Virus genome (UHGV): UHGV-0185745
Origin: a virus
Direction: 5' to 3' (one strand)
DNA length: 33,261 bases
The position numbers were made by a program, and so were the translations under genes. Numbering within the stretch: position 1 is the first letter of the stretch; every line of letters starts with the position of its first letter. This document shows, one piece after another, positions 1,958-27,356 of this stretch. The notes under the pieces are model-generated. The model was not told the DNA's origin and did no database searches. It worked only from the letters and a program-made list of their open reading frames with translations.

Positions 1958-4405
1958 TTAACCGTCATGCATCATGCTGGCACGGGCGCGCGCACGTTTA
2001 TCCCGCTCGTATTTTTCGAGCGCATCCTGTAACTGGCGGTCAAGCTGTGTCCCCGGCGCAGTACCACCCGTCAGGCTGATGTGATATTCGTTTTTACTCT
2101 GGTCTACATAAGAGCGGCCAGCCGGTGCCGTGACCGGCTGATAAGCCTGATAGCCTGCATAAGAGCTGGTCGCCGGAATATAACCACCGGTGCTATACGT
2201 GACGGCATTAGTCCTTGCGGCGGTCTGGTCGAGTGTGTCTGACTCTTTGTTGATAACACCGAGTTTTTCCAGTACCCAGTCAATACCACTGCGCAGTTTG
2301 TTGAACGCATTAAGCGGCAGCATCAACGCGTCAGCCAGTGCCTGCCCGAACATGACGCCCGTATCACGGCAACGGTTCAGGGTGTCCTGGGTGGCTTTGA
2401 CCGGGGCAATCAAGTTTTTAAACCACTGCCACGCGGCCTGTAACTTTTCACCCAGCCAGTCAAACAGCGGCTTAAGTGGCGTGAACAGTTCCCCCACCGG
2501 CGCAAATGCTGCTTTCAGCCCTTCAACCACACCGCCAAAGAATGCGCTGACAGGCTCCCAGTATTTACGGATAAGCAACGCCCCGGCGACAATGGCGGCC
2601 ACCACGGCCACAACCGGCCAGCTAATCGCCCCGATGGCCGTCATAACGGCACTGCCGACCGTCGTGAAGATTGCCCCCATTGCGCCTGCTGCCGCGATAA
2701 TGGCATTGATGCCGGTGATAACCGGCCAGGCTACGAGGCCAATGGCACCGATGATGCCAGTAAGCGCCAGTGCGCCACCGGCAATGAGACCAATGGTTGA
2801 CGCCAGTGATTTGTTTTTCTGTATCCAGCCGTCGAGTTTTAACACATACTTTGTGGCCGTCTGCGTGAGCTTACGCAGCGCGCCTTCCTGCTGGTCAAAC
2901 AGGTCAGTCCCCACCGCCTCATAAGCGGACTGAAACTCCTTAAAGTCACCGCCGAGGTTGTCCTGCATGATATTTACCAGCTCGGCGGTCTTCCCGTCTG
3001 AGGCTTTAAACGCAGCGGTCAGTTTGTCCAGCTTTCCGGTTGAGGCGGCAGTCATCAGCACAGCGGCGGCTGAGCTGGCCTCCTCCCCGAAAATGGTTTT
3101 CATGTATTCAGCCTGCTGGGCAGTACCGAGCCGGTTTTTCTCAAAACTGGCCTGCATTTCTTTCAGAATGGTAAATACTGGTCGGGTATTCCCCTTGCTG
3201 TCTGAGGTTTTCACGCCAAGCTCTTTGAGTGCATCCCATGCTTTTCCCGTCGGTGCCTGCAGGCGACTTAACACGGCACGGCTTCCCGTCCCCGCCATTG
3301 AGCCTGTGATTTTTGCATCATGCAGCGCCCCGACCATTGCGGCGGTTTCTTCAATGCTGACACCGGCATTTTTTGCCACAGGTGCGGCATAGGTCAGCGC
3401 ATCGCTCATGCCGTCAAAATCGGCGGCGGTTTTGTTCATCGTCATGGAGAGAACATCCCCGATATGAGCGACCTTATCGTTTGAAAGCTGAAAGGCAGAT
3501 TTCATCCCCATCAGCAGGGCGGCGTTTTCTTCCATCGTGCGACGGTTTGCCAGTGCCATATTCAGCGTGACCGGCGTTGCCGCCTGAATAGCCGCAGCAT
3601 CTCCACCCGCTTTCGCAATGATAATCTGTGCACCGGCTGCATCATCTGCCGAGGCGGCGGTATTGTCGCCGAGCTGGCGCGCCTGCTTGCGGAGTGCGGT
3701 CATTTCGGCAGAGTCTTTTGCCACTCCCAGCACGGCCTGCAATTCTGAGTTTTTCTGCGCAAACTCATAACCGGGCATCAGCAGCTTAACTCCGGCCAGC
3801 GTTCCCGCCGCCGCAATCCCCACACCGGCAGCGCCCACCGAGGCCATATTTCCGGCCAGTTCCTTTCCGGCCTGATCACGCTGTTTTACTGCGTTAAGTT
3901 TTGCCTGTTGCGCACTGACACGTGCCAGCGCATCACGCTGACGGTTAAGCTGTGTGGTGGTTTCGCTGATACGGTTTTTCAGCCCTCGTTCATCATGCGC
4001 CAGATTACGGGTATTAATACCCGCCTGACTCAGTTCCTGACGCTGGCGCTGTACCGACAATCTCAGGCTGTTATATTTCGCCTGTAACTCAGACGCATTT
4101 TTACGCGCGGCTTCCATTGCCTTTGCCTGTGCATTTGTCGGTCGTTCAGTATTTTTAAACTGGACAGCCAGAGCTGCGGCTTCCTGTCTGGCTTTTTTCA
4201 ACTCCTGACCAGTCACGGCGAGCTGTGCACTGGTCTTGCGAAATTCCTCAATACGGGATGCCTGACCGTTCAGCTCGCGCAGTGATTTTTGTGTTTCCCG
4301 GATATCCCCCGACAGCGACTTGCTCGCTGTGCGGATGGATTTAAACGGGCGGGATGCCTGGTCAACAGCCCTGAGCAATACCTGTAATTTTACATTGTTA
4401 CTCAT
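1958..4405 (-). CDS. T: Tail tape measure protein T, 815 aa
   Basis: 815-aa Ala/Gln-rich protein with coiled-coil N-terminus and hydrophobic glycine-rich segments; located after E/E' as in P2. Confidence 0.9.
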   Translation of the reverse strand: MSNNVKLQVLLRAVDQASRPFKSIRTASKSLSGDIRETQKSLRELNGQASRIEEFRKTSAQLAVTGQELKKARQEAAALAVQFKNTERPTNAQAKAMEAARKNASELQAKYNSLRLSVQRQRQELSQAGINTRNLAHDERGLKNRISETTTQLNRQRDALARVSAQQAKLNAVKQRDQAGKELAGNMASVGAAGVGIAAAGTLAGVKLLMPGYEFAQKNSELQAVLGVAKDSAEMTALRKQARQLGDNTAASADDAAGAQIIIAKAGGDAAAIQAATPVTLNMALANRRTMEENAALLMGMKSAFQLSNDKVAHIGDVLSMTMNKTAADFDGMSDALTYAAPVAKNAGVSIEETAAMVGALHDAKITGSMAGTGSRAVLSRLQAPTGKAWDALKELGVKTSDSKGNTRPVFTILKEMQASFEKNRLGTAQQAEYMKTIFGEEASSAAAVLMTAASTGKLDKLTAAFKASDGKTAELVNIMQDNLGGDFKEFQSAYEAVGTDLFDQQEGALRKLTQTATKYVLKLDGWIQKNKSLASTIGLIAGGALALTGIIGAIGLVAWPVITGINAIIAAAGAMGAIFTTVGSAVMTAIGAISWPVVAVVAAIVAGALLIRKYWEPVSAFFGGVVEGLKAAFAPVGELFTPLKPLFDWLGEKLQAAWQWFKNLIAPVKATQDTLNRCRDTGVMFGQALADALMLPLNAFNKLRSGIDWVLEKLGVINKESDTLDQTAARTNAVTYSTGGYIPATSSYAGYQAYQPVTAPAGRSYVDQSKNEYHISLTGGTAPGTQLDRQLQDALEKYERDKRARARASMMHDG

Positions 4406-4825
4406 TCGTGTTTCCGCTTCGCCGGAGCGCCTTTTCGCGCCATGTGATGAGTTCGGTCAGGCTCATGGGATACAGTTCTGATGGCGGCCAGTGAAATATC
4501 ACTGCCACATCCGCCATCAGGTCATCGACCGACAGATTTTTCGGAAACGTCACTGCACCGAGTTCGGCGACAAAAAACCGACCACCTTACCGGCCAGCGC
4601 CACAAGGTCAGGCAGTTCCAGCGCGGCGACTTCCTGCTCGGTCAGCATCGGTGCCGTCATGCGCGGCAGCACCTTAATCAGTGCATCGACTTCGGAGTTT
4701 GCAACCGCAGCCAGACTGACACCGCGCAGCGTCCCGGCATTGGGTTTCATCAGCGTGACCTGTTCGATAACCTGCTCACCACGTTTGACCGGATTTTCCA
4801 GGGTAATGACATTTTCTTTGTTCAT
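4398..4825 (-). CDS. E+E': E+E' frameshift fusion product, 142 aa predicted (-1 frameshift at T_TTT_TTG)
   Basis: Minus-strand GGT TTT TTG at 4579..4571; shifting -1 after TTG opens a 57-codon extension ending at TAA 4400..4398; 85+57=142 aa, the size of the P2 E+E' product; E' overlaps the T start (ATG 4405). Confidence 0.7.
4550..4825 (-). CDS. E: Tail assembly chaperone E, 91 aa (zero-frame product)
   Basis: 91-aa ORF immediately upstream of T; contains slippery heptamer near its 3' end. Confidence 0.85.
   Translation of the reverse strand: MNKENVITLENPVKRGEQVIEQVTLMKPNAGTLRGVSLAAVANSEVDALIKVLPRMTAPMLTEQEVAALELPDLVALAGKVVGFLSPNSVQ
4571..4577 (-). other. Programmed -1 ribosomal frameshift slippery site (T TTT TTG)
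   Basis: X_XXY_YYZ heptamer in E reading frame; analogous to lambda G/GT tail chaperone frameshift. Confidence 0.65.
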
Positions 4826-4881
4826 GGTTTTCTCACTTCTGAATCAGGGTTAACCGGTCAGCCTGGCTGACCGTATGAAAA

Positions 4882-5400
4882 TCACAGGCCGATATTTCGG
4901 CGGTGTTGCTCCAGCCGGTCGACGCCGTTCACCTTCTCAATCATGTTGATGGTGTCGATTTCGACCAGCTCCTTACCGTCCATCGTCAGCCGGAAATAAG
5001 TACAAATCACCGGGAGTTTCGATTCGGTATCCTCTCCCTGTTTACCCTCTCCGGTGTCGACTTCTTTCTGACGCCCACGCATGACCACTTCGACGGCCAC
5101 CGTTTCGCCGGTATCGTCGCGCTGGTAAGAACCAGCAAAACGAATCGGTACGGCATCAGCACTGGTTGCAGCGTAAAGCTCCCAGATAACCGAATCCGGG
5201 AATCCACCGAGCGACCACTCCATTGACAGCGCATCATCATCAAGGCCGAGGTCTACCGGTGCGCTGCCGTTCATTCCCGCACCGCGATAATTTTCGAGCT
5301 TACGGGTCAGTTTTGGCAGCGTGACGGAATTTGCAACGCCCTGATAGCTGTAGCCGTTCAGAAAGACATTCATGTATTTGAGTTTGCGCGGCATTGCCAT
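4882..5400 (-). CDS. FII: Tail tube protein FII, 172 aa
   Basis: Synteny FI-FII-E and P2-like length. Confidence 0.88.
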   Translation of the reverse strand: MAMPRKLKYMNVFLNGYSYQGVANSVTLPKLTRKLENYRGAGMNGSAPVDLGLDDDALSMEWSLGGFPDSVIWELYAATSADAVPIRFAGSYQRDDTGETVAVEVVMRGRQKEVDTGEGKQGEDTESKLPVICTYFRLTMDGKELVEIDTINMIEKVNGVDRLEQHRRNIGL

Positions 5401-5412
5401 CGGTCAGGCTCC

Positions 5413-6603
5413 TTAATTGCTGTTAACCGAGGTGACCAGATTTGCCAGGTATTTATCGGTGATACGCTGGCGCAGGGTCAGGTTTTCGAGAGGAGGCGCC
5501 GGGGTATAGTCGTAGTCGATATACAGTTTTCCGGCCTTGAGGGTTTCCGCATCGTTGGATTCTTCGCTGAACCAGCATGTGCCATCCACGATATAACCGT
5601 TGCTTTTCAGTTCGCGGAATTTGGCATTGATGCCGTCAACGATGTCGCGAATCAGCGTTGCGGTGATGGGCTTGTCCACCGCCCACATGTGCGCCTCAGC
5701 CATCGTGTCGGCCAGCACCTGCGCGGTGCGGGTGTAGTTTTCAAAGAGGAACAGCGGGTCATCAGAGCAGGTACGGTTACCCCAGAAGCGGAAACCGTCA
5801 CGGCGAATCAGCGTTGTGACACCTGACTCGTTCAGCAGGTCAGCATCGGTGCCGGACTCCTGCAAATCCCAGAATACGGACGCACTGATGCCGGTAACAC
5901 CGTTTACCCCGACGTTGGACAGCGTTTTATGCCAGCCCTGCTCCTGGTCGATTCTGGCACGCAGACCCAGCGCACGGGCGGTGGCATACGCGGTGGCGGT
6001 GGTACTGGTGACCGTATCCCATGCGAGGAAATCCGGCCAGATGACCATCAGCTCACGCTGGCTGAAATTCTGGCGGTAGGCTTTCACCTCGGAAATGGTT
6101 TTACAGCCCCATGCGCTGATATACCCGAAAGCGCGCAGCTTCTGGCAGACTGATGCCAGTGCAACAGCCACCTCTTTGGTGTCCAGTCCCGGCACACCGA
6201 GAATACGCGGTTTAACACCGGTTACCGACTCTGCCGCCAGCAGGGCTTTCAGTCCGGTATACTGACCGTTTTCGTCAGTGGTGCCGATGATATTGGAAAC
6301 GGTCTGCGCGAGTTTCGTTTCTTCGTCGTCGCCGGTGCCGTCTTCCACACGCACGACAACGGTGACCGGTTTTGACTGGTCAGCGATGGCCTGCAGCGAC
6401 GCCGCCAGCGTGCCTTTTTTACCGGCCTTTGCAATTGCGCTCTGCACATTGGTAATCAGCACAGGTTTATTGAGGGGGAAGGTTTCCGCATCCGCATCGC
6501 TGGCCGTGCAGACCATGCCGACAATGGCAGTGGATACAGTGGAAATGACGCGGGTGCCGTCGTTAATCTCCAGCACCTGCACGCCGTGATGATAGTCACT
6601 CAT
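5413..6603 (-). CDS. FI: Contractile tail sheath protein FI, 396 aa
   Basis: 396-aa ORF preceding FII; P2-like length and position. Confidence 0.9.
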   Translation of the reverse strand: MSDYHHGVQVLEINDGTRVISTVSTAIVGMVCTASDADAETFPLNKPVLITNVQSAIAKAGKKGTLAASLQAIADQSKPVTVVVRVEDGTGDDEETKLAQTVSNIIGTTDENGQYTGLKALLAAESVTGVKPRILGVPGLDTKEVAVALASVCQKLRAFGYISAWGCKTISEVKAYRQNFSQRELMVIWPDFLAWDTVTSTTATAYATARALGLRARIDQEQGWHKTLSNVGVNGVTGISASVFWDLQESGTDADLLNESGVTTLIRRDGFRFWGNRTCSDDPLFLFENYTRTAQVLADTMAEAHMWAVDKPITATLIRDIVDGINAKFRELKSNGYIVDGTCWFSEESNDAETLKAGKLYIDYDYTPAPPLENLTLRQRITDKYLANLVTSVNSN

Positions 6604-6700
6604 CCGTTTAACTCCGTGGTTAATGGGTGCAACTATTTTCTGTTGTGCAGAGCATGAGACGCTATTTGACCTGGCTGGTCAGTGGATGAAACAACAGATA

Positions 6701-6726
6701 AAGAAAAGGCGAGCAATCAGCCCGCC
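6701..6726 (-). terminator. Possible intrinsic terminator insulating the cargo island from the FI late operon
   Basis: Minus-strand GGCGGG-CUGAUU-GCUCGCC hairpin (one G-U) followed by UUUUCUUUAUCUGUUGUUU. Confidence 0.3.
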
Positions 6727-6945
6727 TGCCTTGATTTGTACTCTCTCAGTTTCCAACTGACAAATTACGTAACCAAAACTCTGTCAAATCTGACAGTCTG
6801 CTTTGAGCGAAAAACAGGTATTGAGATACATAATAAATCATCTCAATTTTCAACTTTTCTGCCACTTAACATCTTGAGTAGTAAATAGTACAAAACTATC
6901 TACTGCCGAAGGGCTCTAGGAAGTATGGTTTCTGCACAATAAGAC

Positions 6946-7089
6946 TTATATCGGCTCACGGGGAGCCAAAAGATATTCATTGCCTAGAATTTGCAGATGA
7001 GGTGGTAATCTGTACTGGGGCGGTACTGCAACAGCTATGTATATTTCCACTGCGGTAATCTGTACCAGCAGGTAGAAGCTGTTATACAT
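6946..7089 (-). CDS. Candidate small ORF, 47 aa, hydrophobic N-terminus (MYNSFYLLVQITAVEIYIAVAVPPQY...)
   Basis: ATG 7089..7087 preceded by AGGGGCGGUG; not in the ORF track (<60 aa); overlaps an inverted repeat that could sequester its RBS. A 12-bp direct repeat falls in two different frames inside it, which argues against coding. Confidence 0.25.
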   Translation of the reverse strand: MYNSFYLLVQITAVEIYIAVAVPPQYRLPPHLQILGNEYLLAPREPI

Positions 7090-7125
7090 CACCGCCCCTG
7101 TAGTGCTAATCCGGAGATAGCACTA
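7017..7125. repeat. Structured non-coding element: 8-bp inverted repeat GGGGCGGT(7017-7024)/ACCGCCCC(7091-7098), 12-bp direct repeat GGTAATCTGTAC (7004-7015, 7054-7065), and 8-bp stem hairpin TAGTGCTA/TAGCACTA (7101-7108/7118-7125)
   Basis: Read directly from the sequence; located 50-170 nt downstream of the TOPRIM-like gene stop. Confidence 0.5.
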
Positions 7126-7177
7126 CTCTCATCAAGGCTTGTTCTTCCATAAACCGCAATAGGTGTTAGTTTTAGCC

Positions 7178-8035
7178 TTAATGTAAAATTAACAATTGAT
7201 TCAGACGCTTATGTAATTTTGTGGTTCTAAATGTATGATGATCGTAACTCATACGCATATAACTATCTATCTCATCCAGACGCATGTTCTTATTTACAGA
7301 TATATCAGTTTCATACATCATTTTTAATATACATGTAAAGTCATGACCATTGCATATAGAAAAATGATCTGGCGACATTAATTCTAATTTACGCATTTCA
7401 TTATATAAATTTTTCGCATTAAAATCCTTATCAGTACGACTCCTGCTAAGCACATGATTTATATATTTGGTTTCATCAACTACAACATCTGTCCTGTTAA
7501 TACTTACAAAATTCCTGTAATTCATTCCTTTGAAATTAAGATTGCTATGTGTAAGATAATTGTACCATTTGAGAAGTCCGATTTTATAGCATGCACAAAG
7601 GATGTTCATCTTTACATCCTGACAGAATATATCGGCCAATTCCCCTTGAATTAATTTTCTATCTGTATGTGACATAATGAATTTATCAACCGCACCACCT
7701 TTTACTAACATCATTTCAAGGTCATGAGCATCAGTATAAAAAATCCCCTCGTGATTTATTCCGCTTAACTCATCAAAGTCCGCGTCACATACACCATACA
7801 CAGCATTATTACCTGCACGACGTAATTGACTAACAGCCAATATTACTTCACGTTTTCCATTTTCAGGTGATTCATAAATGATTCTATTATCAAGCCGATA
7901 TGCATTGAAAAATCGGATATCTGAAATGCCCTCAACCACAATCAATATACAACGTTGATACATTTCATTTCTGAATAAAAGCATCATACTACTCAACCAA
8001 TCATCTTCGCGAACAGCATTGCGTAATGACATCAT
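7178..8035 (-). CDS. TOPRIM-like (OLD-family/DUF4435-like) putative nuclease, 285 aa; AriB-like partner of upstream ATPase
   Basis: Conserved Glu in ILIVVEGISD (E35) and DxD in YGVCDADFDE (D84, D86) about 50 aa later, the TOPRIM pattern; ATG abuts the stop of the ATPase gene (TAAATG); AT-rich. Confidence 0.6.
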   Translation of the reverse strand: MMSLRNAVREDDWLSSMMLLFRNEMYQRCILIVVEGISDIRFFNAYRLDNRIIYESPENGKREVILAVSQLRRAGNNAVYGVCDADFDELSGINHEGIFYTDAHDLEMMLVKGGAVDKFIMSHTDRKLIQGELADIFCQDVKMNILCACYKIGLLKWYNYLTHSNLNFKGMNYRNFVSINRTDVVVDETKYINHVLSRSRTDKDFNAKNLYNEMRKLELMSPDHFSICNGHDFTCILKMMYETDISVNKNMRLDEIDSYMRMSYDHHTFRTTKLHKRLNQLLILH

Positions 8036-9280
8036 TTACTCGTTTCCTTCTGAAAGCTGTTGGCTTTCATTTCTATTTCTAATCATTTCATATAGATCGT
8101 ATGTTAATTCCCAATTCTTACTAATTACTTGTGGTGAATGAGTAGCAATAATGACCTTTTCATACTTGTTAATCTTTTGTATTTTTTTGAGAGAATCCAA
8201 GAAAGTTTGTTGCCAGGCGACATGTAATGATATTTCTGGCTCGTCTATAAGAATTACTTTTTGTGAAACAAAATCGAAAATCAAATTAAAAAGAAGAACT
8301 ATTTGGTTCTGTTCACCTGATGAAAGCAAATTACGATCAATAACATCGCCATTGTGACTTTTGAAATAAAATCCGTTATCTCTATCAATCATCACTTTTT
8401 TAAAAGCTAAAACCTTTTCTTTCAAAATTGATTCAAATAAATCAATTTTTTGATGTAATGTCTGAAACGGTGACAATTTTCCAAGGGCATCTTCAATATA
8501 TAGATCCAACACACTTAGATATTCATTGCTACTATAAAAACTTGTGCTTTTTTGAGGCATTAGCTCGTTATCAGCCTGAATAAGGCCATAACGCATATAA
8601 TGTCGACGTTTATCTTGAATACCATTTAAGCGATCTTGAATATTTTCTGATGAAAATCGTTTTGATTGCTCTAAACGCTCAAATAATCGAATAGGAAATG
8701 TAGCGTCTAATTTTTGTGATAATGCAGCGGAATCATCTTGTGCATTTTTCATTAAATATTTTAATTTTCTAGCACATAAGTCAATGACTGTTTCATCAAC
8801 AGCTTTGACTTGTAATCGATCTGCACATATAAAAGATACGTCTTCTTTCGATGTAATATGACTTAACACATCCGAAGATAATGGTTTATCAGTTCGTAAT
8901 TTTTGTTTTGGTTTAACATCCCCCCTATGCAAGCTTACATAAAATAACTCTTCCATAATAGATTCATCTGTCTGTAACTTGAGTCTTTCTTCCGTTCTGT
9001 TTCCTGAGCTATTATCCAGATGATTCAATATTAAACCATCTTTATTGGTGTCATGAGTAATTGAAACAGAGCCACCTTGAAAATCAATTTTAATAAAATC
9101 AAAATTAAGTTTACAGAGAGCATTTAATTCATTTGTAAGAATACTATTGATGATTTTAAGAATCATTGTCTTACCATATCCATTTGGACCAGTAAGCATA
9201 GTAATTTCATTGTTATCCAAGGGAATTTCATAATCAAGGAGACCAAATAGTTTTTTTACTTTTAAATGTATCAATTTCAT
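8036..9280 (-). CDS. ABC-type ATPase (SMC/RecF/OLD-like; AAA_15/AAA_21-type), 414 aa; AriA-like
   Basis: Walker A GPNGYGKT (9167..9190), ABC signature LSSGEQ (aa 319-324), Walker B VILIDEPE (aa 342-349), H-loop IIATHSP; good RBS GAGG 6 nt upstream of ATG 9280. Confidence 0.7.
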   Translation of the reverse strand: MKLIHLKVKKLFGLLDYEIPLDNNEITMLTGPNGYGKTMILKIINSILTNELNALCKLNFDFIKIDFQGGSVSITHDTNKDGLILNHLDNSSGNRTEERLKLQTDESIMEELFYVSLHRGDVKPKQKLRTDKPLSSDVLSHITSKEDVSFICADRLQVKAVDETVIDLCARKLKYLMKNAQDDSAALSQKLDATFPIRLFERLEQSKRFSSENIQDRLNGIQDKRRHYMRYGLIQADNELMPQKSTSFYSSNEYLSVLDLYIEDALGKLSPFQTLHQKIDLFESILKEKVLAFKKVMIDRDNGFYFKSHNGDVIDRNLLSSGEQNQIVLLFNLIFDFVSQKVILIDEPEISLHVAWQQTFLDSLKKIQKINKYEKVIIATHSPQVISKNWELTYDLYEMIRNRNESQQLSEGNE

Positions 9281-9300
9281 ATCAACCTCGCAGACGATGA

Positions 9301-9306
9301 ATTATA
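9301..9306 (-). promoter_or_regulatory. Candidate -10 hexamer (TATAAT) for the ATPase/TOPRIM operon
   Basis: Perfect TATAAT on minus strand 20 nt upstream of the ATPase ATG; -35 is weak. Confidence 0.35.
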
Positions 9307-9772
9307 ACCATTTATTACATGGCGCATATGAAATGCAATATATCATTGTCATGAGTTGCATTTCAAACATATGCCCCAACATCAATGCTAAATCCGTGAT
9401 TAAAATTAATAAACTCCTGGTTTTTGCAAATAATTTCTTGCCCTAATAGTTTGGAAATACCTCTTTTAAATTTATAGTGAATAATATTACGCCCATTTAG
9501 TTCTCTCTTTGCAGAACTGAACATGTCGGGAGCTACTGTGTGGAGAAACACTGAAACGATCGTTAGTGAATATTTGCACACTGGTGATAGTACTAAACAG
9601 CCCTTTGGTCATGTCCGAAAAATAGTGACTCGTACAACATGATCGATGTGATAGCATTTATGACAGTGAAACATAACAATCACCTTTGAACATTTTCCAT
9701 ACGTGCATTATACCTATTAAATCTAAACAAAACAAATAGATATAAAATATTCATCCGCGTATCTTCATGCTC

Positions 9773-9975
9773 TCATATACCACATACGGGAGCCTTAACA
9801 TCAAGTACTAAGCACGTCGTGAAGCTGTTTCCGTTAAGACGACTTTGCACTACTTGACTGATTAGCCATGCCTGCTTGTCTATCACACATTTAAAGTTTT
9901 TCATCGCTAACGTAGTTAGTCCATTCCCTTGAATGGCGTTTTACCAGTCTATATATGACAAATATCGTACTTTTT
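9773..9975 (-). pseudogene. Decayed 3' fragment of a gpD-like tail gene (last ~40 codons intact as a 43-codon ORF 9773..9904; upstream part frameshifted/stop-interrupted)
   Basis: Minus-strand translation MKNFKCVIDKQAWLISQVVQSRLNGNSFTTCLVLDVKAPVCGI aligns without gaps to the gpD C-terminus in this window (GFKRVIDEQDWTITKVTHFLNNSGFTTSLELEVRLSDV...); DNA also matches (ACGTCGTGAAGC, CTGCT(T/C)GTCTAT, TTAAAG); upstream codons read TGKTPFKG vs gpD TETPVKVSGF in a shifted frame. Confidence 0.55.
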
Positions 9976-10310
9976 CCACATTCAGTCCAATTCATTCACC
10001 GCTCCCGATTCACCTACAACACCCTCTCAACGACGTTCTCTGTACCTGTAATACCGGCGCAAATTGCGTCGAAAATGTCGTTCTGCATCGCATAAACCTT
10101 CATCAGATTTGGCCTACAATGCAGCGAATAGTCTGAAATTAAAAACCGATGATGATGGACTGTACTGTTCATGCAAGTCTGGTCGCTCTGTGCCTCATCA
10201 AGGAATGAATAATGATCTTGGCGACGTCTACTCTTGGCACAGAGCGGACTGTCAGATTAGTTTTTACTCTGTTCCATAGATGAGTAATCTCACACCAGAT
10301 CTAATACAAT

Positions 10311-10889
10311 TTATTGCGGCATTTCCGGCCATTCTATATCCGGAGCATCTTCCGGCTGAACGCGATTCAGTAACACACGGTATTTTTTCCAGTGTGTCAG
10401 GCTTAACTTTTCTTCCTCGGTAGCCATATCTAAATCGACAGCATCCTGCAGCGTGGCAATGATTTCACCTGCATATGCAATCTGCTCTTTCTTCTGAGAC
10501 TCCGCCGCTCTGACAAGCGCATCACGCTCTGCATTCTCATCATTCACCCACGCATTTCCGTTCCATTTCTGATAATCCCCCTCCGGGGAAATGGCTGTCA
10601 CGTCTGGAGGTAATGCGCCAAGTTCAGAAATATAAATGGCTGCTCCCGTTTTCGTTTCGTAGACAGTCTTTCCGCGATGATCTTCCATCAACTCCCATTT
10701 CATTTCATCTGCATTGAAAACGGCAGCAAAACCCGCCGGAATATCAGGTGGTGCAATATCTGTACTGTTTGCAGGCAGGCCAGTATACGGCGGAATATAT
10801 GCATCACTTTCGCCAATAAACTCATTGGTTCCATCAAGTAAATTGAAAACGCGGATAGTTTGTGCTTCTGCACTCATTCTGAAAGCCAT
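10311..10889 (-). CDS. G: Tail fiber assembly protein G, 192 aa
   Basis: Immediately downstream of H with 1-nt stop/start overlap; tail-fiber chaperone position. Confidence 0.82.
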
Positions 10890-13507
10890 TATGCAAGCCT
10901 CACAATATAGTTAAATGCAATGTTTTTGACGGTGTTTTCGGTATTACCAGTAGCATTTACGGTAATGGAATGCCCGTGTGAGCCAATAGCAACAGTGTGT
11001 GAATGTGCACCAATACCAACAGTATGGTTATGTGCTCCAATGTCGACTGTATGTGCATGATTGCCTGATGAACTTGTAGTCGTAGCACCTTTATCACTTC
11101 GCGGAACACCATAATCTGCACCGCCTGATTGCACGCTCACAGCAAAACCGACGGTATGTGTATGATTGCCAGAAGTATTGGTTGATTTTGTGCCGTGGTT
11201 AAACGTACTGACTGTTTTTGTCCCGTAATCAAATGAACTGGTCGTTTTCGTTCCTAAGTCCGTACTTGACGCACTGGCGCTGTGAGTATGCGATTTAATC
11301 CCGTCCTGTTCCTGTGACAATACGGCACGCCCACTGGCGGGTTTGCCCTTGATTGTCCAGCCGCGCATATCAGGAATAACACCAGAAGGATAGGCAATAG
11401 CCAGTTTCGGATATGCAGCCTTATCAAACGTCTGCCCCTGCATGATCGCATAGCCTGCAGGTGGTGTATCTGATGGCCACGGCAGCGGAACACCTGGCGG
11501 AAACGCTTCAATATTTGCCGAGCCGTCAAATTTTACGCCGTTAATTGTCCTTGGCGTTTTCAGCTTTGTAGCTGTAGCCGCATTGCCGGACAGTTCGCCT
11601 GAAATACCGGCGCTGAAGGTTTGTTTCGCCGCCCATGTCTGAGCTTCGTCGATAATTGGCACACGTCTTGTCGTGATCGTGCGGCTTCCCGGATTTCCTG
11701 AAATACGCACCATAAAAAAGCGGTAATTCGCTTTACTTACAGTGCTGCGCCATACATGCATTGAGCGCCCCGTACCGGAATCATCACTCGGACCAACTGC
11801 GATGTTTATCAGGTTGCCATCAATGACGCCCCAGTCCATACCGTCGGGAATGTTGGTCATGTTATCAAGCCGCACGGTTATCAGACTGCCCGGCACAAAA
11901 TCGTAGGTCTGCCAGTCCAGACTGGATAGTTTTGCCACTGCGCCACCGATGCCCAGATTCAGAGGCAACGAAAAGGAGTTATATACTTCTCGCCATTCGG
12001 TCCATTTGCTCCCGGCGTAGACGCGCTCAAAAGTGCGTCCCTGTGTAGTTTCTGATTTCCCTGTGGTTGTGTAACGCTGCCAGACAGACACACCATCAAA
12101 ACGTCTGATTACTTCCAGTATCCCAAGTAGTGTCGCGCCAACGGTGTCCAGCATCGGACCGTTTGTTGCCTTTCCTGTAACACTGTAAATACCGGGGTCG
12201 GTTAGAACATTTAAATCACCTTCGTAATAACGACTCTCTGACTGATGACCGACTCTTAACCACGGTTCCCACTGCGGATTTGATGCATCCCAGCTTGCCG
12301 CAAGGCAGCGGACATACATATTTCCACGGCGAGTGGTATAACGTTGCGTTCTTCCATAATTTCCGCCTTCGAGGATCTCAAGCATCCCCTGAGCAAAGCC
12401 GCCTTCCTCTGGATAATTGCGTTCATATGAAGCTATAGCCGAGCTACTGTTACGCCATAAACCAAGATGTTCGGCGGCTCCAAGCGTATTCAGGTCTATA
12501 GTCGTACTCAAAGGGCGGGTAGCTGATTGAGTGTGACGCCATATGCCCCACGGACCATCAGAGCCATTCCACTTATTGGCGAGTCTGCGTATGTATACAT
12601 TGCCGTCTCTCGTGGTGAAGCGTTGCGTACCTGCAAAATTGCCGGCAGCAAAAACCTCAAGCACACCGACAGCATTATCTTCCGGGAAATTTTTCTCCAG
12701 TGTTGCGTTAGTTGAGGTAGCTTTAGACCAGATCCCCAGATAAGCCTTAACGGGACCAAATGTATTCAGATCAGCATCAAGCGGCATTTCGCCATTGTTT
12801 TTCATAAACGTCAGGCTGGTAACGCCAACATTGTCCAGAAAAGCACCCTTATCTGGAATATCGCCACCGTTCTGGTCTTTCTGCATACGTTTTTCAGCAT
12901 TGTCATAGGCTGCTTTTACTGCCTTTGGCGTCGCTGCCAGCTTTTCACTGGTGCTGTTTGTTGCACTGCTTAACTGAGTAAAACCTTTTTCTGTCAGCGT
13001 GGCGTCAGGATGGCGGCGGGACTGCTCATGCTCTGCGATTTTGTCATCGACGTAATCCTGCGTCGCCATCACTGTGCTGGCATCAATACTCAGCTCAACG
13101 GACGCCACATTGCTGAGAATAATAACCATGCGGCAGGTCTGCGCACGTCCGGAGCCTTCAGCCAGTTCTGGTTTATAGCTTTCTGCCATGTTGGATACCG
13201 CAATCAGTGTTCCGGCATCGTCATACAGACCAAGCTCACGCATCCAGAAGCCGCCCACTTCGGGCGGTACAACCAGTTCAGCCACGATATAGTTTTTATT
13301 CTTGTTATCCACGCTGACTTTATTCAGAGCGTGACGCCAGACCTCATGCACCAGTTTCGTCTGACCGGCATCCGGCACCGGCAATTTGCCATTACCGTCA
13401 CCCACGGCCATTGCAGACAGGGTTACTTTTTTCCCGCCTGGGACAGTGGCGGCTGCCAGCTTCGCGGCTCCGGCAGTAGTGATAACGGTTTTAAATTTCG
13501 TGCTCAT
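10889..13507 (-). CDS. H: Tail fiber protein H, 872 aa (mosaic; longer than P2 H)
   Basis: Large ORF after baseplate gene I with a Gly/Ala-rich N-terminus, three ~90-aa internal repeats and His-rich C-terminal HxH repeats typical of fiber tips. Confidence 0.88.
10958..11293 (-). repeat. His-rich short tandem repeats at H C-terminus (GxHxHTV[GD]IG units; GTKxxSxF units)
   Basis: Protein [42 protein letters not shown]; DNA shows ~21-bp repeated units near 10960-11060. Confidence 0.5.
11978..12775 (-). repeat. Three tandem ~90-aa coding repeats within H (DLNT[FL]G...LE[VI]...QR[FY]TT...[VY][IV]R...W)
   Basis: aa ~245-510 of H show three related units; coordinates approximate. Confidence 0.5.
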
Positions 13508-18654: not shown

Positions 18655-18858
18655 TTACTCCCACAGATTGACAGTTTCAGCCACGGGCGCGGTCTGAACG
18701 TCGGGCAGTTCGACGGCGGTGCCGTGCGGCAGCACCGCACCCAGTTCAGCCAGTCCCGGATTTGCGGCGAGCACGGTCTCAACCACGCCCTCAGTGCGCC
18801 CGTAATACCGGACACAGATGGCGTCGAGCGTGTCGCCCTGTAGCGCAAAGGTCTTCAT
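18655..18858 (-). CDS. X: Tail protein X (LysM-like), 67 aa
   Basis: ATG at 18858..18856 (MKTFALQGDTLDAICVRYYG...); the track ORF is N-terminally extended; start overlaps L stop by 1 nt. Confidence 0.8.
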   Translation of the reverse strand: MKTFALQGDTLDAICVRYYGRTEGVVETVLAANPGLAELGAVLPHGTAVELPDVQTAPVAETVNLWE

Positions 18859-19367
18859 CAGATTTGACTCACGATGCAGCGCGGCTTGTCCTGGATGCGC
18901 GCCACTGCCCAGCGCATATCCCGCCACAGCTCATCAATGGTGCTGTCAATGCTGTCGGCCTTCTTGTCGCCTTTCGCACTGGCATCCACGCCGCGATAAC
19001 GCTCATAAAGCGATGCGGTCGCCATCGCACACACGGCGCGCTCGTAGTAAAAAACTTTGATGCTTTCACCGTCGATGTCGTCCGCCGGGACGTCCGCCAG
19101 ACGCGTAAAACCGGCAGCAATTTTCTGTTCGCGGTACTCGTACAGCTCCGCATTCGTCTCCGCCATGCCTGACTTGATGGCCTCACGCAGACGGGCGGGG
19201 GCGACGGTCTGCTCAAGGCGCATACGTTCCCGGACGCGCTTCGGGTCGATATCGGGAAAAAAGAACGTGTTTTTAATCACCGGCTCGTCGCCTGCTGGTT
19301 GCGGGATGACCACCGTACCCTCACCGGATACAGGAGCCTCCTTTCGCGGAATAATCAGCGTCATCAT
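18858..19367 (-). CDS. L: Head completion/stabilization protein L, 169 aa
   Basis: ATG at 19367 (MMTLIIP...), P2 length 169 aa; track ORF extended 20 codons upstream. Confidence 0.82.
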   Translation of the reverse strand: MMTLIIPRKEAPVSGEGTVVIPQPAGDEPVIKNTFFFPDIDPKRVRERMRLEQTVAPARLREAIKSGMAETNAELYEYREQKIAAGFTRLADVPADDIDGESIKVFYYERAVCAMATASLYERYRGVDASAKGDKKADSIDSTIDELWRDMRWAVARIQDKPRCIVSQI

Positions 19368-19466
19368 GACTACCTCTGAAAAGTCGGGCGGTGGACGCCG
19401 GTGCAGTGTCAGGTGATTCACCCTCACTGACCGGCGTGCCGCCCTGGCGCGGGGCGCATTCGGTTG

Positions 19467-25368: not shown

Positions 25369-25641
25369 CGCCCGCTTCATGTTGCGGTTTTAATGCAAGT
25401 GCATAAACACGTCGAAACAGCACCAGTATTGGCGTAGTTGGCAAAGGGCATGAAATCAAAACACATGCAATTTAATGCAATAACGTCAGTATTACCAAGG
25501 ACAACAGAAACTAAGGTAATATCGCATAAAAAACCGACGAATCATGTCGTAGATTCAACTTTATCAGGCAGTTTTCACCGGTAGTACACAATTAAGTCTG
25601 ACGTCTTGTTCCTATTGAGTAGATTAAGATCTCGAATCTTC

Positions 25642-25670
25642 TTGACACTGATGCGCTCATCCTTATTCTG
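25642..25670 (+). promoter_or_regulatory. Candidate sigma70 promoter for the SIR2-like gene (TTGACA-N16-TATTCT)
   Basis: Perfect -35 TTGACA at 25642-25647; weak -10; ~95 nt upstream of the ATG. Confidence 0.3.
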
Positions 25671-25762
25671 CCAAAACATATGTCGCTTTTTGAAAGTCTG
25701 TTTGAAGTTTTATCTGCTATTTGGTTGTATAGAGATAACGATGATCAACTTCGAGAATTAAT

Positions 25763-27244
25763 ATGGAAATCAAAGAATTTGTCAGCCAGTACAAAAACCA
25801 CCCAGTTCTTTTTATAGGCACAGGTTTTAGTCTAAGATATCTGCAAAACTCATTCAGTTGGGATGGGTTATTGATGAAAATTGCCGTTGATTTAACTGGC
25901 AACCCTGAATTTTATTATGATCTTAAATCGGAAAGTATTGAAGGTGACGAATACAGATACGACATTCTTGCAACAAAATTAGAGAATATCTTCAATAAGA
26001 AACTCGCCGAAGACAGAAACGGAAAGTTTGAAAGCATCAATGATATTTTCTACGAGAACATGAGTCATGGAAAAAAACTTAGCCGATTCAAAATATACCT
26101 AACATCAATATTAAAAGACTCACCTCTCAAAGAAGATTTAAGAGATGAAATTAACAGCTTAATAAAAACAAGAAAGAATATTGGCTCAATTATTACTACC
26201 AATTACGATCAACTTATCGAAAATTTATTCGATTTCTCTCCGCTTATTGGCAACAATATATTGCTAAGCAATCCATATGGCTCGGTATATAAAATACACG
26301 GTTGTGTTAGTGACCCCAATAACATAATCATAACATCTGATGATTATAATAACTTTAATGACAAATATGAGTTAATACGTGCTCAACTATTATCTATATT
26401 CATTCACAACCCCATTATTTTTTTAGGATATAGCATCAGCGACAAGAATATTAAATACCTCCTGCAGACAATATTTTCATATGTAGATCTAAATACTGAA
26501 CTAGCAAAAAAAATAAAAGACAACTTTCTCCTTGTTGAATATGATGAGGGGAACATGTCTACAACTATTTCTGAACATGATATTAACATTGAAGGTTTAT
26601 CCATTATAAGAATTAACAAAATCAAAACAGACAATTACAAAGCCGTTTACGATGCCATATCTAATTTAATTCTCCCTGTTTCCGCAATGGATATAAGAAA
26701 AGTACAAAAAGTCTGGAATACAATAAAAAGTGGCGGTGAAATCAAGGTAAAAATCACGGAAAACCTCGATGAATTACGGAATGAAGAAATGGTAATCGCT
26801 GTAGGCTCAGAAAGAACTGTTACCTACGAATACCAGACAAAATCTGAAATGATTCAAAATTACTTTAAAATTGTCGATGAAGCTAACGCACAACTCATTG
26901 CACTTTTGAATAAACAAACTATCACAAATCATGAGCACTTTCCAATTTACGCATTTAGTTCTGTATGCCCTGAATTAGAAAACGTTCAGCTATACAAAGA
27001 CAGACAATTGGATAAGATAATAAATCAACTCACTAGAATTAAAGCGTGCAAATGTGATGCAACAACAATAGATGAGATATTAGAAACAACAAAAGAATAT
27101 AAAGTAGCCAATACAATCATGTATTGTGTACTTAATGACACAATTTCCTTAGCACAACTCAGAAAATATCTTATCTCTATATCACACAAAATAGATACTC
27201 ATTACCGTAAATTATTGTGCCTGTATGATTTTCTATCATACTAA
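25763..27244 (+). CDS. SIR2-like domain protein (putative NAD+-hydrolysing defence effector), 493 aa; C-terminal ~250 aa of unknown function
   Basis: N-terminal Rossmann-type VLFIGTGFS (aa 15-23), IITTNYDQLIE (N147, D149), KIHGC (H179), FLGYSISD (aa 220-227): the pattern I associate with SIR2_2-type domains of ThsA/DSR proteins; strongly AT-rich; sits at the P2 tin/old slot. Confidence 0.5.
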   Translation: MEIKEFVSQYKNHPVLFIGTGFSLRYLQNSFSWDGLLMKIAVDLTGNPEFYYDLKSESIEGDEYRYDILATKLENIFNKKLAEDRNGKFESINDIFYENMSHGKKLSRFKIYLTSILKDSPLKEDLRDEINSLIKTRKNIGSIITTNYDQLIENLFDFSPLIGNNILLSNPYGSVYKIHGCVSDPNNIIITSDDYNNFNDKYELIRAQLLSIFIHNPIIFLGYSISDKNIKYLLQTIFSYVDLNTELAKKIKDNFLLVEYDEGNMSTTISEHDINIEGLSIIRINKIKTDNYKAVYDAISNLILPVSAMDIRKVQKVWNTIKSGGEIKVKITENLDELRNEEMVIAVGSERTVTYEYQTKSEMIQNYFKIVDEANAQLIALLNKQTITNHEHFPIYAFSSVCPELENVQLYKDRQLDKIINQLTRIKACKCDATTIDEILETTKEYKVANTIMYCVLNDTISLAQLRKYLISISHKIDTHYRKLLCLYDFLSY

Positions 27245-27259
27245 GCATAAAAATATATA

Positions 27260-27290
27260 AACCGTCAGAATGAACTGACGGTTTATATTT
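27260..27290. terminator. Bidirectional intrinsic terminator between convergent SIR2-like gene and A
   Basis: AACCGTCAG-AATGAA-CTGACGGTT hairpin flanked by an A-tract upstream and TATATTT downstream. Confidence 0.55.
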
Positions 27291-27356
27291 ATTACATAGC
27301 CCCATATGTACAGAACGCTATTCCCCTTATTCACAACTAATAAAAACCGAAGATTC

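What the first reader, a model, noticed from the sequence alone, without database searches (positions are those of the whole stretch)
9773..9975. Decayed duplicate of the 3' end of tail gene D inside the cargo island
Seen: a 43-codon minus-strand ORF (9904..9773) translates to MKNFKCVIDKQAWLISQVVQSRLNGNSFTTCLVLDVKAPVCGI. This aligns colinearly, with 17 of 36 identities, to the C-terminus of the gpD encoded at 301-1464 in this same window, and the nucleotide sequences share 12-mer matches. Upstream, homology continues in a shifted frame with a stop, so it is a pseudogene fragment. Inference: a recombination scar suggesting the island was acquired from, or exchanged with, a locus lying downstream of a D-like gene in another P2-family element. 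Alternatively the intact 43-codon piece is kept as a small protein.
Basis: seen in the sequence. Interest (0 to 1): 0.6.

Follow-up and report, generated by a model that had tools for sequence, protein, structure and literature searches.

The report
Dead tail-gene relic beside PARIS cassette
The 43-codon ORF is a dead leftover of a tail gene from a different P2-type phage, one of several gene relics in front of a PARIS anti-phage cassette; it is an ordinary pseudogene, but it suggests where the cassette once sat.

Summary
ORF 9904-9773 matches the C-terminus of the resident gpD: 17/37 identities, BLASTP E 5e-8, and 0 of 2000 shuffles reach the score. Reading the minus strand, the order is: L' (last ~7 codons), X' (first ~36-39 codons), 'D (last ~48-60 codons), a D-ogr spacer, a broken ogr', then ariA-ariB (PARIS).

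This mosaic is not a local duplicate. It is closer to the D-ogr of Enterobacter phage ENT4 than to the resident copy. It also travels with close PARIS relatives (80-91% AriA identity) in non-P2 contexts: an Escherichia island, Kluyvera, Erwinia, and a Mu-like prophage in Morganella. Each of these keeps a different subset of the tiles.

The 43-aa ORF is not maintained. It lacks a start codon and carries a shared stop in Kluyvera and Erwinia. Against the nearest relative it shows 6 nonsynonymous and 3 synonymous codon changes. Its divergence is about that of fourfold-degenerate sites in ariAB.

Best reading: an inert pseudogene scar, showing that this PARIS lineage probably once lay just downstream of ogr in a P2-like phage. 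Possibly the spacer's ogr-type promoter is reused for ariAB, because a deletion in Kluyvera and Erwinia places it about 50 nt from ariA. Modest interest.

The parts
10234..10258 (.). Left arm of the 25-nt inverted repeat that bounds the cargo of the P2 'Z region' (between tail genes G and FI).
   Evidence: the repeat finder pair I1, 84% complementary to 6787-6811. Both arms are present in P2 and in P2-like prophages with other cargo. GenBank AJ512683 annotates left and right inverted repeats at this locus.
10127..10233 (-). Conserved leader of the cassette, function unknown. It contains an 11-bp perfect inverted repeat, CGCTCTGTGCC 10184-10194 / GGCACAGAGCG 10236-10246.
   Evidence: Homologous in the Morganella loci (10264->10004 at 77%), in L020 (10232->10128) and in Kluyvera (10285->10235). 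The repeat was read directly from the sequence.
10104..10126 (-). L': the last ~7 codons of a head-completion gene L homologue, ending in the TGATG stop/start overlap with X.
   Evidence: blastn 10025-10126 vs 18777-18881, 74%, E 1.8e-11, with the alignment shown. The Morganella and L020 copies keep 14 more nt of L. No L homology is detectable further upstream.
9995..10103 (-). X': the first ~36-39 codons of a tail gene X homologue, with a premature stop at 10016-10014.
   Evidence: tblastx to the resident X N-terminus, E 7.5e-5. 79% over 132 nt to the L/X junction of another E. coli P2-like prophage, E 1e-23. The Morganella orthologue hits Pfam Phage_tail_X positions 1-39/60.
9773..9956 (-). 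'D: remnant of the last ~48 (robust, 9773-9907) to ~60 (weak) codons of a gpD baseplate-hub gene, including its stop codon. This is the finding.
   Evidence: Orthologous copies occur upstream of ariA in L006/L040, Kluyvera and Erwinia. The closest intact relative is the ENT4 D C-terminus.
9773..9904 (-). The 43-codon ORF read from the 'D remnant. It is not a maintained gene.
   Evidence: Translation. Versus L006 there are 3 synonymous and 6 nonsynonymous codon differences. There is no ATG, and a TAG at codon 11 is shared in Kluyvera and Erwinia. No SD sequence lies upstream.
9675..9772 (-). D-ogr intergenic spacer carrying an ogr-type sigma-70 promoter-like element: -35 TTGTTT 9735-9730, 17-nt spacer, -10 TATAAT 9712-9707.
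   Evidence: The TTGnnn-17-TAnAAT element sits at the same alignment columns in the authentic D-ogr spacers of the resident prophage and ENT4, and in all four scar copies. That it is a promoter is inference; its score is below the threshold of the consensus scanner.
9487..9674 (-). ogr': pseudogene of the Ogr late-gene activator. ATG at 9674-9672, TAA at 9489-9487. It carries an 8-nt insertion, a 1-nt deletion, and 29- and 16-nt deletions.
   Evidence: The Morganella copies keep a more complete 3' half (Ogr residues 27-71, E 7e-11). A reconstructed Ogr' matches Ogr homologues over 99% of its length, best 62.7% to ENT4.
9337..9366 (-). Proximal promoter-like site for ariA: TTGAAA-18-TATATT with a TG extension, 10/12 matches, 57 nt upstream of the ariA ATG.
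   Evidence: The equivalent site is found in Morganella. The region is conserved in the Salmonella copies and deleted in Kluyvera and Erwinia.
8036..9280 (-). ariA, the PARIS ABC-type ATPase (414 aa).
   Evidence: PADLOC AriA E 1.9e-25; Pfam AAA_15 and AAA_21.
7178..8035 (-). ariB, the PARIS DUF4435/TOPRIM effector (285 aa).
   Evidence: PADLOC AriB E 2.6e-21; Pfam DUF4435 E 5e-25.
6818..7177 (-). Conserved non-coding tail of the cassette downstream of ariB, function unknown.
   Evidence: It aligns with the L006, Morganella, Erwinia and Kluyvera copies. No Rfam family or tRNA was found.
6787..6811 (.). Right arm of the inverted repeat bounding the Z-region cargo.
   Evidence: Also found in Morganella (both arms), and in L040 beyond an extra nSTAND gene.
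6707..6727 (-). Intrinsic terminator hairpin that follows gene G directly in the empty-site phage STYP1. Here the whole cassette lies between the G stop codon and this terminator.
   Evidence: Terminator scan; STYP1 sequence.

Best explanation
The ORF at 9904-9773 is an inert pseudogene remnant of the 3' end of a gpD gene. It belongs to a roughly 650-bp mosaic of P2-type gene relics: the L' tail, the X' head, the 'D tail, the D-ogr spacer and a broken ogr'. This mosaic forms the upstream arm of a mobile PARIS (ariA-ariB) cassette.

Shown:
- The relics are colinear with authentic P2 gene junctions.
- They come from a P2-like lineage other than the resident prophage.
- They were already present in the common ancestor of a PARIS clade now found in E. 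coli P2-like prophages, an Escherichia chromosomal island, Kluyvera, Erwinia and a Mu-like prophage of Morganella.
- They evolve at about the neutral rate, and the ORF is not conserved.

Inferred:
- This PARIS lineage once lay immediately downstream of ogr, at the D-ogr-att end of a P2-like (pro)phage.
- That genome was deleted between X and D, and the remnant plus PARIS ended up inside the inverted-repeat-bounded Z-region cassette between tail genes G and FI.
- From there it has spread, losing different tiles in different lineages.

The 'D piece itself does nothing. It persists because it sits between retained parts of the cassette and has not yet been deleted in this lineage.
For: 1. Homology is real.
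2. Colinear extension through the D stop, the spacer and into ogr (9600-9896 ~ 144-439), plus a separate L/X junction piece (10025-10126 ~ 18777-18881).
3. The same arm lies upstream of close ariA homologues:
   - L006/L040: 92.7% identity over 10066->6790.
   - Kluyvera and Erwinia: 9945->9703 at 71-74%.
   - Morganella: 10264->10004 and 9621->6784.
   - L020: leader plus L' only.
   - Salmonella: cut by an IS at 9368.
4. Morganella keeps ogr segments that are deleted in E. coli, and E. coli keeps the ogr 5' half and 'D that are absent in Morganella. Both therefore derive from an ancestor with a complete 'D-ogr.
5. Donor lineage: the Erwinia 'D is 79% identical in nt to ENT4 but 66% to the resident. 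The reconstructed Ogr' is 62.7% identical to ENT4 Ogr. The K-12 PR-X remnant and the resident are 96% alike but only ~69% to the scar.
6. Neutral evolution: 'D divergence from L006, Erwinia and Kluyvera is 7, 26 and 33%. Fourfold-site divergence of ariAB is 12.5, 21 and 24%.
7. ORF43 shows a 6:3 nonsynonymous:synonymous ratio, a shared stop and a missing start in Kluyvera and Erwinia, and no SD.
8. Five other Z-region cargos contain no P2 gene fragments, so the scar is specific to this cassette lineage.
Against: - No genome was found with an intact D-ogr-ariAB arrangement, so the 'once downstream of ogr' step is inferred from adjacency only. None of the roughly a dozen distinct contexts examined has it, and two scans of species-representative genomes returned nothing.
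- The X'/'D junction could reflect two independent captures rather than one deletion.
- The neutrality test rests on ~130 sites and three comparisons.
- A block inside 'D (9883-9868) is unusually conserved, 14 of 15 columns among the four copies, which is unexplained.
- No expression data were available.
Confidence: 0.8

Rival explanations
1. Partial exaptation. The scar is retained because the D-ogr spacer next to the 'D remnant still carries the ogr promoter, which now transcribes ariA-ariB. The 'D coding remnant is then upstream promoter context or a passenger. This extends the best explanation rather than excluding it.
For: - A TTGnnn-17-TAnAAT element occupies the same columns in the authentic D-ogr spacers (resident, ENT4) and in all scar copies. 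The -10 is consensus TATAAT in E. coli.
- In Kluyvera and Erwinia, a deletion (window 9703->9323) removed ogr' and the proximal promoter. It fused this element so that its -10 lies about 52 nt from the ariA start. The strict scanner finds no other consensus promoter upstream of ariA there.
- ogr of the P2-like prophage BTP5 is transcribed in all conditions tested in the lysogen (PMC7067206).
- No terminator is predicted between the element and ariA.
Against: - The promoter block is only slightly more conserved than the 'D remnant (77-82% vs 67-74%), roughly the neutral level.
- The Morganella, Salmonella and L020 copies lack the element and use the proximal TTGAAA-18-TATGAT/TATATT site.
- The -35 is weak (3/6).
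- No TSS data were available, and the P2 ogr-promoter mapping papers could not be read here.
Confidence: 0.35
2. ORF43 is a genuine small protein gene, a domesticated gpD C-terminal peptide kept by selection.
For: An intact 43-codon ORF with an ATG is present in E. coli and in the L006/L040 copy.
Against: - Kluyvera and Erwinia share a TAG at codon 11 and lack the ATG. Erwinia has a second stop.
- 6 nonsynonymous against 3 synonymous codon changes between the two intact copies.
- No Shine-Dalgarno sequence.
- Divergence is about neutral.
Confidence: 0.03
3. A local duplication: the fragment was copied from this prophage's own D gene into the island and then decayed.
For: It shares strand and orientation with the resident D, and the homology is significant.
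Against: - Only 66% nt identity to the resident copy, and the less decayed orthologues are closer to ENT4 (79%).
- The scar occurs with PARIS in genomes and contexts that contain no P2 backbone.
- The 13 E. coli genomes with this island are 99.8-100% identical across it, which leaves no time for such decay in situ.
Confidence: 0.04
4. Chance or low-complexity similarity.
For: None beyond the short length of the match.
Against: - E 5e-8, 0 of 2000 shuffles, DNA z 12.2.
- Colinear continuation into ogr.
- Independent matches of orthologous copies to the ENT4 D C-terminus.
Confidence: 0.01

Closest known systems
Cryptic prophage PR-X of E. coli K-12 (yegZ pseudogene + ogrK)
   Same: It is also a remnant of the right end of a P2-type prophage, consisting of a C-terminal gpD fragment (yegZ, 219 nt) followed by the spacer and ogr (annotation).
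   Different: - PR-X lies at a chromosomal site, whereas this scar is inside a cargo cassette of an otherwise complete P2-like prophage.
- PR-X keeps an intact ogrK, whereas here ogr is broken.
- PR-X is 96% identical to the resident D-ogr; the scar is only ~69% identical to PR-X.
- The scar is fused upstream to an L'X' fragment and downstream to PARIS.
Z-region (Z/fun) moron cassettes of P2-like coliphages bounded by inverted repeats (Nilsson, Karlsson & Haggard-Ljungquist 2004, Mol Biol Evol 21:1; GenBank AJ512676-AJ512685)
   Same: Same insertion point between G and FI, same flanking inverted repeats, low G+C cargo, and different cargo in different phages.
   Different: - The cargo here is PARIS plus a string of P2 gene relics.
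- Five other Z cargos checked contain no such relics.
- The paper itself could not be read here. The comparison rests on the GenBank annotations, the sequences, and its citation in PMC6379469.
PARIS (AriA/AriB) defence systems in P2/P4 hotspots (Rousset et al. 2022, PMC9122126; Burman et al. 2024, PMC11464382)
   Same: A two-gene ariA (ABC ATPase) - ariB (DUF4435/TOPRIM) operon carried by a P2-like prophage.
   Different: - Rousset et al. describe the P2 hotspot next to cos (the tin/old side) and the P4 psu-int hotspot. This copy is in the G-FI Z region.
- That paper contains no occurrence of 'ogr', 'pseudogene' or 'remnant'.

Membership tests
gpD / Phage_GPD (PF05954) baseplate hub gene | Sequence homology to gpD | tested here: met
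   17/37 identity to resident D residues 340-375, E 5e-8. Orthologous copies match ENT4 D residues ~339-389.
gpD / Phage_GPD (PF05954) baseplate hub gene | Full-length open reading frame (~385 aa) able to encode the hub protein | tested here: not met
   Only the last ~48-60 codons remain. The upstream part is frame-shifted or absent, and orthologues carry stops. It is therefore a pseudogene fragment, not a member gene.
Ogr/Delta zinc-finger late activator (PF04606) | Four-cysteine zinc finger (CxxC ... CxxxxC) in an intact ~72-aa ORF | tested here: not met
   The first CxxC (CHKC) and the YHQC motif are recognisable. The frame is broken by an 8-nt insertion, a 1-nt deletion, and 29- and 16-nt deletions. 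A stop follows YHQCANIH.
Ogr/Delta zinc-finger late activator (PF04606) | Position immediately downstream of D with a ~75-100-nt spacer | tested here: met
   The 'D stop is at 9773 and the ogr' ATG at 9674, colinear with the resident 301/219 and with ENT4.
gpX / Phage_tail_X (PF05489) | Homology to the X N-terminus preceded by the L stop/X start overlap | tested here: met
   The Morganella orthologue hits Pfam E 1.9e-5 at positions 1-39/60. The gene is truncated after about codon 39, so it is a fragment only.
PARIS defence system | Adjacent ariA (ABC/AAA_15-AAA_21 ATPase) and ariB (DUF4435/TOPRIM) genes | tested here: met
   PADLOC AriA 1.9e-25 and AriB 2.6e-21. The genes abut at 8035/8036.
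PARIS defence system | Anti-phage activity triggered by anti-restriction proteins; tRNA cleavage by AriB | not testable with these tools
   Known for other PARIS systems (PMC9122126, PMC11464382).
P2 Z-region inverted-repeat-bounded cassette | Inserted between tail-fibre assembly gene G and sheath gene FI, flanked by inverted repeats that are absent from an empty site | tested here: met
   Arms at 6787-6811 and 10234-10258. The same arms occur in P2 and three other P2-like prophages. They are annotated in AJ512683. The empty site in STYP1 lacks both arms.
Functional small-protein gene (ORF43) | ORF, start codon and ribosome-binding site conserved among orthologues, with purifying selection | tested here: not met

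The most novel reading that the evidence does not exclude
This PARIS lineage entered the P2-phage world at the ogr-att end of a prophage, for example by aberrant excision that captured adjacent host DNA, and was transcribed from the lysogen-active ogr promoter. The ogr promoter has travelled with the cassette ever since and still drives ariAB. In Kluyvera and Erwinia it would be the only promoter. If so, the scar is a domesticated phage regulatory region, and it gives a traceable route by which chromosomal defence genes become phage morons and then move between inverted-repeat-bounded cassettes in P2-like, Mu-like and chromosomal sites.
Probability: 0.3. Interest if true: 0.45.

Novelty: new member of a known kind. 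Interest (0 to 1): 0.3.

Why it matters
The 'D remnant itself matters little. It is junk DNA and should not be annotated as a gene.

Its value is as a historical marker. Together with the L'X' and ogr' relics it shows three things:
- One PARIS cassette lineage has moved as a unit between P2-like prophages, a Mu-like prophage and chromosomal islands of at least five enterobacterial genera.
- The cassette carried pieces of a former phage host with it.
- It probably once sat downstream of ogr.

This offers a concrete, testable example of how defence cassettes are shuffled among prophage hotspots, and of a phage promoter that may have been reused for a defence operon.

Tried and rejected
- Scans of species-representative genomes with AriA peptides and with a scar-specific DNA pattern found nothing. 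The viral and metagenome scans returned only the E. coli-type and L006-type copies.
- I looked for an intact D-ogr-ariAB arrangement in the contexts of 10 AriA homologues. None has it. More distant PARIS relatives (66-72% identity), found in ICEs, P4-like elements and the P2 tin/old hotspot, carry no scar.
- I tested whether the leader 10127-10310 is further L-gene remnant. No frame scored z>2.3.
- Rfam and tRNA searches of the island found nothing meaningful.
- I tested whether K-12 PR-X is the donor. It is only ~69% identical to the scar.
- I considered the inverted-repeat arms as Gin/Hin/Cin-type invertase sites, because an invertase gene neighbours the Morganella copy. I rejected this from memory of the gix/hix/cix consensus (AAACC..GGTTT core), which the arms lack. 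This was not formally tested.
- I considered an antisense or decoy role against the resident D-ogr mRNA. The scar is in the sense orientation and shares no exact match longer than about 12 nt, so I rejected it.
- The P2 ogr-promoter mapping paper and Nilsson et al. 2004 could not be retrieved.

Full report
SETTING

The window is an almost complete P2-like prophage with its late genes on the minus strand:
- ogr 1-219, D 301-1464, U, T, E, FII, FI 5413-6603.
- A low-G+C island (29-38% against ~55%).
- G 10311-10889, H, and so on to X 18655-18858 and L 18858-19427, and int at the far end.

The island holds a 414-aa AAA_15/AAA_21 ATPase and a 285-aa DUF4435 protein. These match the PADLOC AriA and AriB models, so it is a PARIS system. 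In P2 and other P2-like prophages the backbone homology stops at 6810-6817 and resumes at 10224-10231, with unrelated cargo in between. This is the variable 'Z region' between G and FI.

CHECKING THE OBSERVATION

The 43-codon ORF translates as stated. Its match to the resident gpD C-terminus is significant:
- 17/37 identities, E 5e-8.
- Score 74 against a shuffle mean of 23 and maximum of 40, with 0 of 2000 shuffles reaching it.
- DNA-level z of 12.2, with an exact 12-mer.

The upstream shifted-frame continuation is weak alone (z 1.6) but is supported by orthologous copies.

Comparing the island with the rest of the window gave two colinear matches.
- 9600-9896 matches 144-439 (66% over 302 nt). 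This runs from the D 3' end through the D stop and the D-ogr spacer into the first ~30 codons of ogr (MFHCHKCYHIDH against MFHCPLCQHAAH).
- 10025-10126 matches 18777-18881 (74% over 105 nt). This covers the last codons of L, the TGATG stop/start overlap, and the first ~36-39 codons of X.

Alignment with relatives shows that ogr' runs from 9674 to a TAA at 9489-9487. It carries an 8-nt insertion, a 1-nt deletion, and 29- and 16-nt deletions.

The region upstream of ariA is therefore a string of P2-type relics, all in the backbone orientation: L'-X'-'D-spacer-ogr'-ariA-ariB.

THE SCAR BELONGS TO THE CASSETTE, NOT TO THIS PROPHAGE

In complete E. coli genomes the island occurs in 13 strains and is 99.8-100% identical, which is uninformative. 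AriA homologues at 80-91% identity exist elsewhere, and their contexts were fetched.

- L006/L040, an Escherichia chromosomal island next to a two-partner-secretion haemolysin locus: it matches window 10066->6790 at 92.7%, with X' (part), 'D and ogr' all present.
- Kluyvera (an AlpA-type island) and Erwinia (chromosome, next to SIR2-HerA): they carry 'D plus the spacer (9945->9703, 71-74%), joined directly to the ariA leader (9323->).
- Morganella (a Mu-like prophage, after the tail-fibre invertase): it carries the leader, a longer L', X' (Pfam Phage_tail_X 1-39/60), an N-terminal lysozyme fragment, and then the ogr 3' half (residues 27-71, E 7e-11). This half is more complete than in E. coli.
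- L020: it keeps only the leader and L'. The Salmonella copies are cut by an IS at 9368.

E. coli retains tiles that Morganella lacks, and the reverse is also true. The common ancestor of this PARIS clade must therefore have carried the full L'X'-'D-ogr arm.

More distant PARIS relatives (66-72%), in ICEs, P4-like elements and the P2 tin/old hotspot, have no scar. Five other Z-region cargos contain no P2 gene fragments.

DONOR LINEAGE

A reconstructed Ogr' matches Ogr homologues over 99% of its length. The best match is Enterobacter phage ENT4 at 62.7%.

The ENT4 D C-terminus (GFKRVIDEQAWVISRVVHYLNGNGYTTGLELEV...) resembles the scar copies more than the resident D does. The Erwinia arm is 79% identical in nt to ENT4 and 66% to the resident.

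The K-12 remnant PR-X (yegZ + ogrK) is 96% identical to the resident D-ogr but ~69% to the scar.

It is not a duplicate of the resident gene.

IS ANYTHING SELECTED?

- 'D divergence between E. coli and L006, Erwinia and Kluyvera is 7, 26 and 33%. Fourfold-degenerate divergence of ariAB is 12.5, 21 and 24%. These are about equal.
- ORF43 differs from the L006 copy at 9 codons, 6 of them nonsynonymous.
- Kluyvera and Erwinia lack the ATG and share a TAG at codon 11. Erwinia has a second stop.
- No Shine-Dalgarno sequence precedes the ATG.

The small-protein alternative is rejected. The 'D remnant behaves as neutral DNA.

A POSSIBLE REUSED PART

In the authentic D-ogr spacers of the resident prophage and ENT4, a TTGnnn-17-TAAAAT element lies ~35-40 nt before the ogr ATG. 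The scar copies keep it in the same columns: E. coli has TTGTTT-17-TATAAT at 9735-9707, and Kluyvera and Erwinia have TTGTTT-17-TAGAAT.

In Kluyvera and Erwinia a ~380-nt deletion removed ogr' and the proximal promoter. It placed this element about 52 nt from the ariA start, and the strict scanner finds no other consensus promoter upstream of ariA there.

E. coli, Morganella and Salmonella also have a good proximal site: TTGAAA-18-TATATT/TATGAT with a TG extension. In the P2-like prophage BTP5, ogr is transcribed in all conditions tested in the lysogen (PMC7067206).

I therefore consider reuse of the ogr promoter for ariAB plausible (about 0.35). Conservation of the block is barely above neutral, and no TSS data were available. 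That P2 ogr has its own mapped promoter is my recollection of Birkeland et al. 1991, which I could not read.

HOW THE CASSETTE IS PACKAGED

A 25-nt inverted repeat (6787-6811 / 10234-10258) brackets the cargo. It is present in P2 and in P2-like prophages with other cargo, and it is annotated as left and right inverted repeats in AJ512683 and its sister records. Salmonella phage STYP1 lacks both arms: there, G is followed directly by the terminator hairpin, which in this window lies at 6727-6707.

The Morganella copies carry both arms. L040 carries the right arm beyond an extra nSTAND gene. Arm-like sequences flank PARIS plus an AAA_13 gene in a Dickeya ICE.

Homology of the non-P2 copies ends within a few to ~30 nt outside the arms. 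This fits the inverted-repeat-bounded Z-region unit being what moves. As far as I recall, that is what Nilsson et al. 2004 proposed from such repeats; the citation is in PMC6379469 and the paper was not readable.

MODEL

Shown:
- A real, colinear, neutral mosaic of P2 gene relics.
- It is ancestral to a PARIS clade that spans several genera and element types.

Inferred:
1. PARIS lay just downstream of ogr in an ENT4-like P2 phage.
2. A deletion joined X codon ~39 to D codon ~330-340.
3. The remnant plus PARIS came to lie inside a Z-region cassette.
4. The cassette spread, and lineage-specific deletions or replacements trimmed the arm.

Steps 1-3 lack a living intermediate.

VERDICT

The feature is an ordinary pseudogene scar with some value as an evolutionary tracer, and it has a testable side-hypothesis of promoter reuse. 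Interest 0.3. It is a new member of a known kind: a prophage remnant or moron scar, comparable to yegZ-ogrK.

Noticed in passing
window 6787-6811 and 10234-10258; L014 7044-7066 and 10470-10492; L029 9833-9855 and 15046-15068; L040 8235-8257: A 25-nt inverted repeat brackets the whole cargo island. The same arms bracket PARIS cassettes outside P2: both arms in a Mu-like prophage of Morganella; degenerate arms around PARIS plus an AAA_13 gene in a Dickeya ICE; and the right arm after an extra nSTAND gene in an Escherichia island. The empty-site phage STYP1 lacks the arms. This suggests the IR-bounded unit itself is mobile. The IRs are annotated in GenBank AJ5126xx records from 2004.
   Followed up: partly
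window 25500-27500 (ORF 25763-27244, +): A second low-G+C island at the tin/old-type hotspot between portal gene Q and replication gene A. It encodes a 493-aa SIR2-like protein that matches PADLOC candidate system PDC-S25 (E 6e-157).
   Followed up: no
window 6818-7177: About 360 nt downstream of ariB are conserved with the L006, Morganella, Erwinia and Kluyvera cassettes. There is no conserved ORF, Rfam family or tRNA. The function is unknown; it could be a 3' UTR, a small RNA or a recombination arm.
   Followed up: partly
window 10127-10233: A conserved leader lies between the left IR arm and L', shared with the Morganella and L020 copies. It contains an 11-bp perfect inverted repeat (10184-10194 / 10236-10246) with a 41-nt loop that overlaps the IR arm. 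No homology to gene L or to any P2 protein was detected.
   Followed up: partly
L015 vs L017 (Morganella morganii), 3776-12725: In two Morganella genomes, the block [invertase - X' - lysozyme fragment - PARIS] and the invertible tail-fibre segment (fibre tips plus two assembly genes) occur in swapped order. This implies rearrangement around the invertase region that also moves the defence cassette.
   Followed up: no
window 9868-9883: Inside the otherwise neutrally evolving 'D remnant, a block (ATAGACAAGCAGGCATGGCTAATCAG) is conserved in 14 of 15 columns among the four scar copies. This is more than the surrounding sequence and is unexplained.
   Followed up: no
L014 7386-7757: In Morganella, the place of 'D plus the ogr 5' half is taken by a truncated lysozyme gene (Pfam Phage_lysozyme positions 10-87 of 125). 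It shows no detectable similarity to the resident P2-type K lysozyme. It is another captured phage gene fragment in the same arm.
   Followed up: partly
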